NCBI RefSeq assembly: GCF_003334335.1
Contig: NZ_QOWQ01000015.1
Direction: 5' to 3' (one strand)
Length of the DNA stretch: 64,000 bases
From: Escherichia coli
Lineage (GTDB): Bacteria; Pseudomonadota; Gammaproteobacteria; Enterobacterales; Enterobacteriaceae
The notes under the pieces were generated by a model. The model did not search any database and was not told the origin of the DNA. It was given only the letters and a program-made list of their open reading frames with translations. Positions 63,924-64,000 of the stretch are shown here, piece after piece. Position 1 is the first letter of the stretch; each line of letters begins with the position of its first letter. The position numbers and the translations under genes were made by a program.

Positions 63924-64000
63924 GAGCCTGTACATAGATTTGTGTAATTGCCTGATTTTGATATGTTCAATCCAGCATCAAATGAAGGTTAATTTATGGA

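What the first reader, a model, noticed from the sequence alone, without database searches (positions are those of the whole stretch)
63924..64000. btuB leader loses identity mid-aptamer; AT-rich tail ends in SD + ATG at the window edge
Positions 63855..63923 match the btuB 5' leader as I recall it, up to ..GGTAAGGAAAGGTG. The expected continuation (CGATGATTGCGTTATGCGGACACTGCC.., which carries conserved aptamer elements) is absent. Instead the window reads GAGCCTGTACATAGATTTGTGTAATTGCCTGATTTTGATATGTTCAATCCAGCATCAAATGAAGGTTAATTTATGGA, about 35% GC by my count against roughly 50% expected. It contains a plausible weak promoter (TTGTGT .. TATGTT), an AAGG Shine-Dalgarno at 63985..63988 and an ATG at 63996 (alternative ATG at 63982) reading out of the window. 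This looks like a junction into non-native DNA that would truncate the riboswitch. Only 77 bp are visible, so nothing can be said about what it encodes. It is also possible that my recollection of the leader is imperfect.
Basis: partly seen in the sequence, partly recalled or inferred. Interest (0 to 1): 0.65.

Follow-up and report, generated by a model that had tools for sequence, protein, structure and literature searches.

The report
IS1414 inserted in btuB riboswitch
The last 77 bases of the window are the left end of the known E. coli insertion sequence IS1414, which has landed in the vitamin-B12 riboswitch upstream of btuB and split it in two; this is an ordinary mobile-element mutation, not a new kind of feature.

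Summary
Window 63855-63923 is nt +1 to +69 of the E. coli btuB leader. From 63924 on, the sequence is foreign. The 77-nt tail is 100% identical to the left end of intact IS1414 copies (IS256 family, 1314-1315 bp), starting at base 1 of the left inverted repeat. The ATG at 63996 is the annotated transposase start codon. Rfam's cobalamin model scores 87 bits full-length on the native leader. In the window it scores 33 bits, cut at the 3' end, and only the first ~94 model positions really align. The B12 box, the 3' strands of P1/P3/P6 and the L13 pseudoknot partner are therefore pushed about 1.3 kb downstream, beyond the window.

The rest of the window is plain E. coli chromosome (rhaT to trmA). 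None of 5,426 complete E. coli genomes has this junction. Three of them carry other IS elements in the btuB 5' region: IS2 at +35, IS1 in codon 5, and IS1 at +69, the same boundary as here.

The likely effect is loss of B12-responsive control and reduced or deregulated BtuB, the receptor for B12, E colicins and BF23-type phages. The right junction, the 8-bp duplication (predicted GAAAGGTG) and the phenotype lie outside the window. Interest is low.

The parts
62626..63726 (-). trmA coding sequence (native neighbour, divergent from btuB)
   Evidence: Annotated as trmA in L001 2127-3227. Window coordinate = L001 coordinate + 60499. The start codon is seen as CAT at 63724-63726.
63819..63848 (+). 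Promoter-like site upstream of btuB (TGGACA, 18 nt, TAGCAT), intact
   Evidence: Consensus scan, 9 of 12 matches. It ends 6 nt before +1 (63855). This is a consensus match only; function is inferred.
63855..63923 (+). btuB leader nt +1..+69: the 5' part of the AdoCbl riboswitch aptamer, including L5 (ACGCG, 63901-63905)
   Evidence: 100% identical to the native leader. Aligns to RF00174 model positions up to about 94.
63916..63923 (.). Predicted left copy of the 8-bp target-site duplication, GAAAGGTG
   Evidence: Inference. Six of seven full IS1414 copies examined are flanked by a perfect 8-bp duplication. The right copy would lie beyond the window.
63924..64000 (+). Left end of IS1414 (IS256 family), first 77 nt of a 1314-1315 bp element
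   Evidence: 77/77 identity to intact IS1414 copies on E. coli chromosomes and plasmids. Starts at base 1 of the element as defined by inverted repeats and duplication in L002.
63924..63953 (+). Left terminal inverted repeat (IRL) of IS1414, 30 nt, imperfect
   Evidence: Corresponds to L002 arms 2501-2530 / 3785-3814, 73% complementary.
63940..63967 (+). Possible weak transposase promoter (TTGTGT, 16 nt, TATGTT)
   Evidence: Sequence only. It has 8 of 12 consensus matches and was not reported by the scan, whose threshold is 9 of 12. Unverified.
63996..64000 (+). First 5 nt (ATGGA) of the IS1414 transposase gene, preceded by AAGG at 63985-63988
   Evidence: The annotated CDS in L002 starts 72 nt after the IS end. 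The reference protein matches Pfam PF00872 Transposase_mut, E = 9.9e-120.

Best explanation
An IS1414 element transposed into the transcribed leader of btuB. It sits between leader nt +69 and +70, with its transposase gene pointing the same way as btuB. The window ends 77 nt into the element.

The insertion cuts the adenosylcobalamin riboswitch aptamer. The promoter and the 5' part of the aptamer (through L5 and the start of the P6 arm) stay next to trmA. The rest of the aptamer is displaced about 1.3 kb downstream: the 3' strands of P1, P3 and P6, the B12 box, and L13, which forms the regulatory pseudoknot with L5. The SD-sequestering P14 hairpin and btuB itself move with it.

**Shown:** the junction, the identity of the element, its orientation, and the loss of a complete aptamer within the window.

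**Inferred:**
- The element is full length, is followed by a GAAAGGTG duplication and the rest of the leader, and probably carries the embedded astA (EAST1) gene, as intact copies do.
- B12-responsive repression is abolished, because the L5-L13 pseudoknot is required for it (PMC11162775).
- BtuB synthesis now depends on read-through from the btuB or transposase promoters. It is therefore most likely reduced, and in any case no longer controlled by B12.
- Reduced BtuB would give resistance to BtuB-dependent colicins (PMC3050690) and, from general knowledge, to BF23-type phages. That is the usual selective reason for such mutations.
For: - **Junction and element.** The native match ends at 63923. 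The tail is 77/77 identical to intact IS1414 and starts at base 1 of the IRL. The element's boundaries are defined by the inverted repeats and the 8-bp duplication in L002 and in five further copies.
- **Gene start.** The ATG at 63996 is the annotated transposase start. The transposase belongs to the Mutator/IS256 family.
- **Which copy.** The tail is identical to the intact IS1414 type. It is not the relic found once in most E. coli chromosomes, which differs at 3 of 77 positions.
- **Riboswitch.** RF00174 scores 87 bits full-length on the native leader and 33 bits, cut at the 3' end, here.
- **Background.** The rest of the window is collinear with strain A14 at about 99.98% identity, so this is a local event in a normal chromosome.
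- **Precedent.** Complete genomes carry IS1 at +69, IS2 at +35 and IS1 in codon 5 of btuB.
- **IS1414 activity.** Intact copies amplify to 2-11 per genome (PMC12585946).
- **Read-through.** No intrinsic terminator-like site was found in the reference IS1414, so read-through is plausible.
Against: - Only the left junction is in the window. The right junction, the duplication, the completeness of the element and the presence of btuB downstream are unseen.
- No other genome or metagenome contig with either junction was found, so the allele has no independent confirmation.
- The effect on BtuB level is not computable. MFE and partition-function folding predict the P14 SD hairpin in the native leader and in the remnant alone, but not in the MFE of the IS-tail hybrid. 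Mean SD accessibility is similar in all three, 0.28-0.35.
- No phenotype data exist.
Confidence: 0.8

Rival explanations
1. The IS1414 copy at this junction is the breakpoint of a larger IS-mediated rearrangement: an inversion or deletion between two IS1414 copies, a composite transposon, or a truncated element. In that case the DNA beyond the element is not the rest of the btuB leader, and btuB may be elsewhere or deleted.
For: Only one junction is visible. IS1414 can be present in many copies per genome (up to 23 places; 2-11 copies in PMC12585946), which provides substrates for recombination. One of seven full copies examined lacks a target duplication (L010), as expected after recombination between copies.
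Against: Six of seven copies are simple insertions with a perfect 8-bp duplication. murI, which overlaps the end of btuB, is generally regarded as essential in E. coli (general knowledge), so a deletion running downstream would probably be lethal. The three other IS-interrupted btuB 5' regions in complete genomes are all simple insertions with duplications.
Confidence: 0.12
2. The junction is an assembly artefact: a chimeric join of the unique btuB flank to a repeated IS end, with no real insertion.
For: The tail is exactly 77 nt, a common largest k in short-read de Bruijn assemblers, which suggests the window ends at a contig end in a draft assembly (inference). No independent genome shares the junction.
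Against: The break falls exactly at base 1 of the IS1414 inverted repeat. A random misjoin would hit one of the two element ends with a probability of roughly 2 in 1314. A contig that ends k bases into a repeat is what a real junction looks like in such assemblies, because k-mers spanning the junction must exist in the reads. Another E. coli has a real IS1 at the same nucleotide.
Confidence: 0.03
3. There is no foreign DNA. The tail is a natural variant of the btuB leader and the reader misremembered the reference.
For: None after testing. The Rfam hit formally spans 63840-64000.
Against: All 5,426 complete genomes continue with the native sequence from +62 to +225. The tail has no similarity to it. 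The covariance model treats 63930-63993 as a 64-nt insert with low posterior probability. The tail is 100% IS1414.
Confidence: 0

Closest known systems
IS1414 (IS256 family; McVeigh et al. 2000, as cited in PMC12585946), the E. coli insertion sequence that carries the EAST1 enterotoxin gene astA inside its transposase gene
   Same: The 77 nt are identical to the left end of intact copies: same IRL, same 72-nt distance to the transposase ATG. The reference copy has 30-nt imperfect inverted repeats, an 8-bp duplication, a PF00872 transposase and the prototype astA ORF.
   Different: Nothing differs in what can be seen. Only 6% of the element is in the window, so its completeness, astA content and right end are unknown. 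The insertion site (btuB leader +69/+70) is not found in any of 5,426 complete genomes.
btuB leader::IS1 in E. coli MEI008 (NZ_CP074680.1)
   Same: An insertion sequence in the btuB riboswitch with the last native base at +69, the same boundary as here. The target duplications overlap (GGAAAGGTG against the predicted GAAAGGTG). The transposase is co-directional with btuB.
   Different: A different element (IS1, 768 bp, 9-bp duplication) in a different strain, so an independent event.
E. coli btuB adenosylcobalamin riboswitch (Rfam RF00174)
   Same: The promoter-like site and leader nt +1..+69 are native. Model positions 1 to about 94 align with high posterior probability.
   Different: The aptamer is incomplete within the window: 33 bits against 87. 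The B12 box, the closing strands of P1/P3/P6 and L13 are separated from the 5' part by the IS. It should not be annotated as a functional riboswitch.
Other IS disruptions of the btuB 5' region: IS2 at +35 in strain LP5-1, IS1 in codon 5 in strain Eco_23-3511
   Same: The same kind of mutation at the same locus. Both are simple insertions with duplications (TGCGA; TAAAAAAGC), and the transposase is co-directional with btuB.
   Different: Different elements and positions.

Membership tests
IS1414 / IS256 family insertion sequence | Terminal inverted repeat at the element end, with the junction to host DNA at its first base | tested here: met
   Window 63924-63953 equals the IRL of intact copies. 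The junction is at base 1.
IS1414 / IS256 family insertion sequence | Matching right inverted repeat about 1.3 kb away | not testable with these tools
   It lies beyond the window end. No right-end sequence occurs elsewhere in the window.
IS1414 / IS256 family insertion sequence | 8-bp target-site duplication | not testable with these tools
   Only the left copy (63916-63923, GAAAGGTG) is visible. Six of seven reference copies have an 8-bp duplication. The predicted right junction was not found in genome contigs.
IS1414 / IS256 family insertion sequence | Mutator-type DDE transposase (Pfam PF00872) | tested here: inconclusive
   Only ATGGA of the gene is in the window. The reference copy, which has an identical 5' end, encodes a PF00872 protein, E = 9.9e-120.
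IS1414 / IS256 family insertion sequence | astA (EAST1) ORF embedded in the transposase gene | not testable with these tools
   Present in the reference copy at nt 788-904. That region is outside the window.
Cobalamin riboswitch (RF00174), functional aptamer | Complete aptamer: closing helix P1, four-way junction, B12 box | tested here: not met
   Only model positions 1 to about 94 align. The score is 33 bits, cut at the 3' end, against 87 bits full-length for the native leader. The B12-box region (native L001 about 3497-3515) is absent from the window.
Cobalamin riboswitch (RF00174), functional aptamer | L5-L13 pseudoknot (P13) contiguous with the SD-sequestering P14 expression platform | tested here: not met
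   L5 (63901-63905) is upstream of the IS. L13 and P14 are in the native sequence downstream of +70. Disrupting the pseudoknot abolishes AdoCbl control (PMC11162775).

The most novel reading that the evidence does not exclude
Leader position +69/+70 of btuB may be a preferred landing site for unrelated insertion sequences: IS1414 here, IS1 in MEI008. Co-directional IS insertions in the btuB 5' region (4 of 4 seen) may be selected because they uncouple BtuB from B12 repression, or keep downstream btuB-murI transcription going, rather than simply knocking the receptor out. That would make riboswitch-splitting IS insertions a recurrent adaptive route to deregulating a receptor gene.
Probability: 0.12. 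Interest if true: 0.4.

Novelty: already known. Interest (0 to 1): 0.15.

Why it matters
For annotation, the cobalamin riboswitch call at 63840-64000 just passes Rfam's gathering score (33 against 31.5 bits). It should be flagged as an IS-disrupted fragment, not a working riboswitch, and the strain should be treated as a probable btuB regulatory or expression mutant.

Biologically it is one more natural example of an IS inactivating or deregulating an outer-membrane receptor used by colicins and phages. If the copy is intact, it is also one more chromosomal copy of the EAST1-carrying IS1414, in line with that element's reported amplification (PMC12585946).

The one mildly interesting point is that an unrelated IS (IS1) sits at the same nucleotide in another strain. 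This hints at a target hotspot, but it rests on two events.

Tried and rejected
- **Exact-pattern scans for the junctions.** The predicted right junction and the observed left junction in genome contigs, and the left junction in metagenome contigs, gave no hits. The source genome and any sister allele are absent from those collections.
- **Junction-centred megablast against 5,426 complete genomes.** No genome has the junction. The best 'bridging' hit (H51, plasmid p720632_94) is another IS1414 copy whose purine-rich flank resembles the leader by chance.
- **RNA folding.** Folding the leader remnant with and without the IS tail gave SD accessibility of 0.28-0.35 in all three constructs. It therefore does not predict whether translation goes up or down. 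Folding +1..64000 gave z = +0.58, no notable structure. A small hairpin pairs GCCU (63950-63953) with AGGU (63986-63989), which overlaps the AAGG SD, and could mask the transposase SD in read-through transcripts. This is unsupported.
- **Hybrid outward promoter at the IS1414 right end.** TTTACA lies 19 nt from the element end, but the junction would give TCGAAA as the -10, which is poor. The scan found no outward promoter in the reference element. Not supported.
- **Literature.** Searches for IS insertions in the btuB leader found no direct precedent in the held library. The original IS1414 paper (PMC101527) is not held.
- **Recombination with the ubiquitous chromosomal IS1414 relic.** Rejected, because the relic differs at 3 of 77 positions while the tail is identical to intact copies.

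Full report
**1. The observation**

The window around the finding reads ...GCGGTAAGGAAAGGTG|GAGCCTGTACATAGATTTGTG...TTAATTTATGGA, with the bar between 63923 and 63924.

- Megablast of window 63000-64000 against 5,426 complete E. coli genomes gives 100% matches that all stop at query position 924, which is window 63923. The features under the match are trmA and 'riboswitch'.
- In the reference locus L001 (strain 300709) the cobalamin riboswitch is annotated at 3341-3531 and btuB starts at 3596.
- The 5' UTR is 240 nt (PMC11162775, construct '-240 to +99').
- Window 63855-63923 equals leader +1..+69.
It is not in the window (alignment).
- The tail is 33.8% GC, against 56.5% for the leader fragment.

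**2. What the tail is**

- The 77-mer matches at 77/77 (E = 8e-31) in hundreds of E. coli chromosomes and plasmids. The annotation there is 'IS256-like element IS1414 family transposase'.
- I took one chromosomal copy as reference: L002, strain 504838, where the element interrupts a flavin reductase gene. It spans L002 2501-3814 (1314 bp). It has 30-nt imperfect terminal inverted repeats (GAGCCTGTACATAG... / ...AAACAGGCTC) and a perfect 8-bp target duplication, TATTTTTG.
- The window's foreign DNA begins at base 1 of the left inverted repeat.
- The annotated transposase CDS starts 72 nt into the element, which maps to the ATG at window 63996.
- The encoded protein is a Mutator-family (IS256-type) transposase: Pfam PF00872, E = 9.9e-120.
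- The reference copy contains the prototype astA (EAST1) ORF at nt 788-904, in a reading frame different from that of the transposase. This is the described hallmark of IS1414 (PMC12585946, citing McVeigh et al. 2000).
- Six of seven full copies sampled have a perfect 8-bp duplication, with no obvious target consensus. Their lengths are 1314-1315 bp. The predicted duplication here is therefore GAAAGGTG (63916-63923).
- Most E. coli genomes carry one chromosomal relic that matches the 77-mer at 96.1% (3 mismatches). The window's tail is identical to the intact type, not to the relic.

**3. What it does to the riboswitch**

- Rfam RF00174 scores 87 bits over model positions 1-189 on the native leader.
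- In the window the same model gives 33 bits, flagged as cut at the 3' end. Only positions 1 to about 94 align with confidence. The IS sequence is absorbed as a 64-nt insert at low posterior probability. The score is just above the gathering threshold of 31.5, so an automatic annotation would still call a riboswitch here.
- The break lies in the 5' strand of the long P6 arm.
- Upstream of the break remain P2, the P4 hairpin and P5/L5 (ACGCG at 63901-63905).
- Displaced downstream are the 3' strands of P6, P3 and P1, the B12 box, L13 (CGCGU in the native sequence) and the P14 hairpin that sequesters the SD.
- PMC11162775 shows that destabilising the P13 pseudoknot abolishes AdoCbl repression. 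It also shows that P14 controls ribosome access and that Rho-dependent termination follows from the translational block.
- Placing L5 in the upstream fragment and L13 in the displaced part is my reading of sequence complementarity and general knowledge of cobalamin riboswitches. The paper's text does not give nucleotide positions.
- It follows, as inference, that B12-responsive control cannot operate on this allele.

**4. Expression consequences (inferred, not shown)**

- The transposase gene points the same way as btuB.
- The simple scan found no terminator-like site in the reference IS1414.
- Transcripts from the btuB promoter-like site (TGGACA-18-TAGCAT, 63819-63848), or from the transposase promoter, could therefore read through into the leader remnant and btuB.
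- Whether BtuB is then low (polarity, a long untranslated stretch) or constitutive cannot be computed. Thermodynamic folding predicts the P14 hairpin for the native leader and for the remnant alone, but the MFE of the IS-tail hybrid pairs that region differently. Mean SD accessibility is similar in all three, 0.28-0.35.
- My best estimate is reduced and unregulated BtuB.
- Reduced BtuB makes E. coli resistant to BtuB-dependent colicins (PMC3050690). From general knowledge it also protects against BF23-type phages. That gives a plausible selective reason.

**5. Context and frequency**

- The rest of the window is ordinary. Window 1-39500 is collinear with strain A14 (rhaT, sodA, cpxAR, pfkA, glpFKX, hslUV, metJBLF, katG...), with 5 mismatches and no gaps.
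- Window 39000-63923 (gldA to trmA) differs from A14 by six mismatches and one extra 123-bp repeat unit between ppc and argE.
- No other IS1414 end occurs in the window.
- No complete genome has this junction. Exact-pattern scans of genome contigs and metagenome contigs found neither junction.
- Among the 5,426 complete genomes, 5,422 have the 351-nt promoter/leader/start region uninterrupted. All 5,426 are intact from +62 to +225.
- Three of the exceptions were examined:
  - IS1 in strain MEI008, with last native base +69 and a 9-bp duplication GGAAAGGTG, the same boundary as here.
  - IS2 in strain LP5-1 at +35, duplication TGCGA.
  - IS1 in strain Eco_23-3511 within codon 5, duplication TAAAAAAGC.
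- All of them, and the IS1414 here, have the transposase co-directional with btuB.
- Two unrelated elements at one nucleotide is suggestive of a hotspot. Taking insertion positions as roughly uniform over about 300 nt, the chance is about 1%. This is a post hoc estimate on very few events. The 4 of 4 orientation bias is not significant.

**6. Rivals**

- *A larger IS-mediated rearrangement* cannot be excluded, because only one junction is visible. It is less likely: six of seven IS1414 copies and all three other btuB-region IS insertions are simple. A deletion running downstream would also remove murI, which overlaps btuB and is essential by general knowledge.
- *An assembly chimera* is very unlikely, because the break is exactly at the IS terminus.
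- The tail being exactly 77 nt fits a contig that ends one k-mer into a multi-copy repeat in a short-read assembly. That is an inference I could not test. If true, it implies at least two identical IS1414 left ends in the source genome and real junction-spanning reads.
- *The 'variant leader' reading* is refuted.

**7. Verdict**

The thing itself is a known insertion sequence in a known kind of event, an IS disruption of a receptor gene's regulatory leader. It is useful for annotation: a disrupted riboswitch, a probable btuB expression mutant, and a probable extra astA copy. It would not surprise a specialist. Interest 0.15.

Noticed in passing
L006 (NZ_CP074680.1, strain MEI008) 2733-3500; corresponds to window 63923/63924: An unrelated element, IS1 (768 bp), sits in the btuB leader of another E. 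coli. Its last native base is +69, the same boundary as the IS1414 junction here, and its 9-bp duplication is GGAAAGGTG. This could be a target hotspot or a coincidence.
   Followed up: partly
L008 (strain LP5-1) about 3102-4432; L007 (strain Eco_23-3511) about 2725-3492: There are two further natural IS insertions in the btuB 5' region: IS2 at leader +35 (duplication TGCGA) and IS1 in btuB codon 5 (duplication TAAAAAAGC). With MEI008 and the window, all four elements have the transposase co-directional with btuB. Only 4 of 5,426 complete genomes have this 351-nt region interrupted; the fourth was not identified.
   Followed up: partly
window 53679-54148: A 123-bp tandem repeat (3.8 copies, 98% matches) lies in the ppc-argE intergenic region. 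The window has one unit more than the otherwise near-identical strain A14. The units look like REP/BIME-type palindromic repeats; that reading comes from the sequence and was not tested.
   Followed up: partly
window 63924-64000, compared with hits H84-H106: Most E. coli genomes carry a single chromosomal copy of this 77-mer at 96.1% identity, often annotated 'hypothetical protein'. It is apparently a decayed IS1414 relic that is nearly universal in the species. Its location and age were not examined.
   Followed up: no
window 63950-63989: In the predicted fold of a read-through transcript, GCCU (63950-63953) pairs with AGGU (63986-63989), which overlaps the AAGG SD of the transposase gene. 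A transcript starting after the putative -10 (63962-63967) would lack the 5' arm. This could be a fold-back that keeps outside transcription from driving transposase translation. The fold as a whole is no better than shuffles (z = +0.58).
   Followed up: partly
window 63924-64000 (length of the tail): The tail is exactly 77 nt, a common largest k-mer size in short-read assemblers. The window probably ends at a contig end where a multi-copy repeat begins, which would imply at least two IS1414 copies in the source genome. This is inference only.
   Followed up: no
window 58741-58850 (-), 3843-3920 (-), 22618-22675 (-), 27287-27339 (+), 8925-8966 (-), 28319-28360 (+): The other Rfam matches at gathering score are all expected residents of this chromosomal region: OxyS, naRNA4, the ClpQY (hslVU) promoter element, the L31 leader upstream of rpmE, and two ES036 elements.
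   Followed up: no
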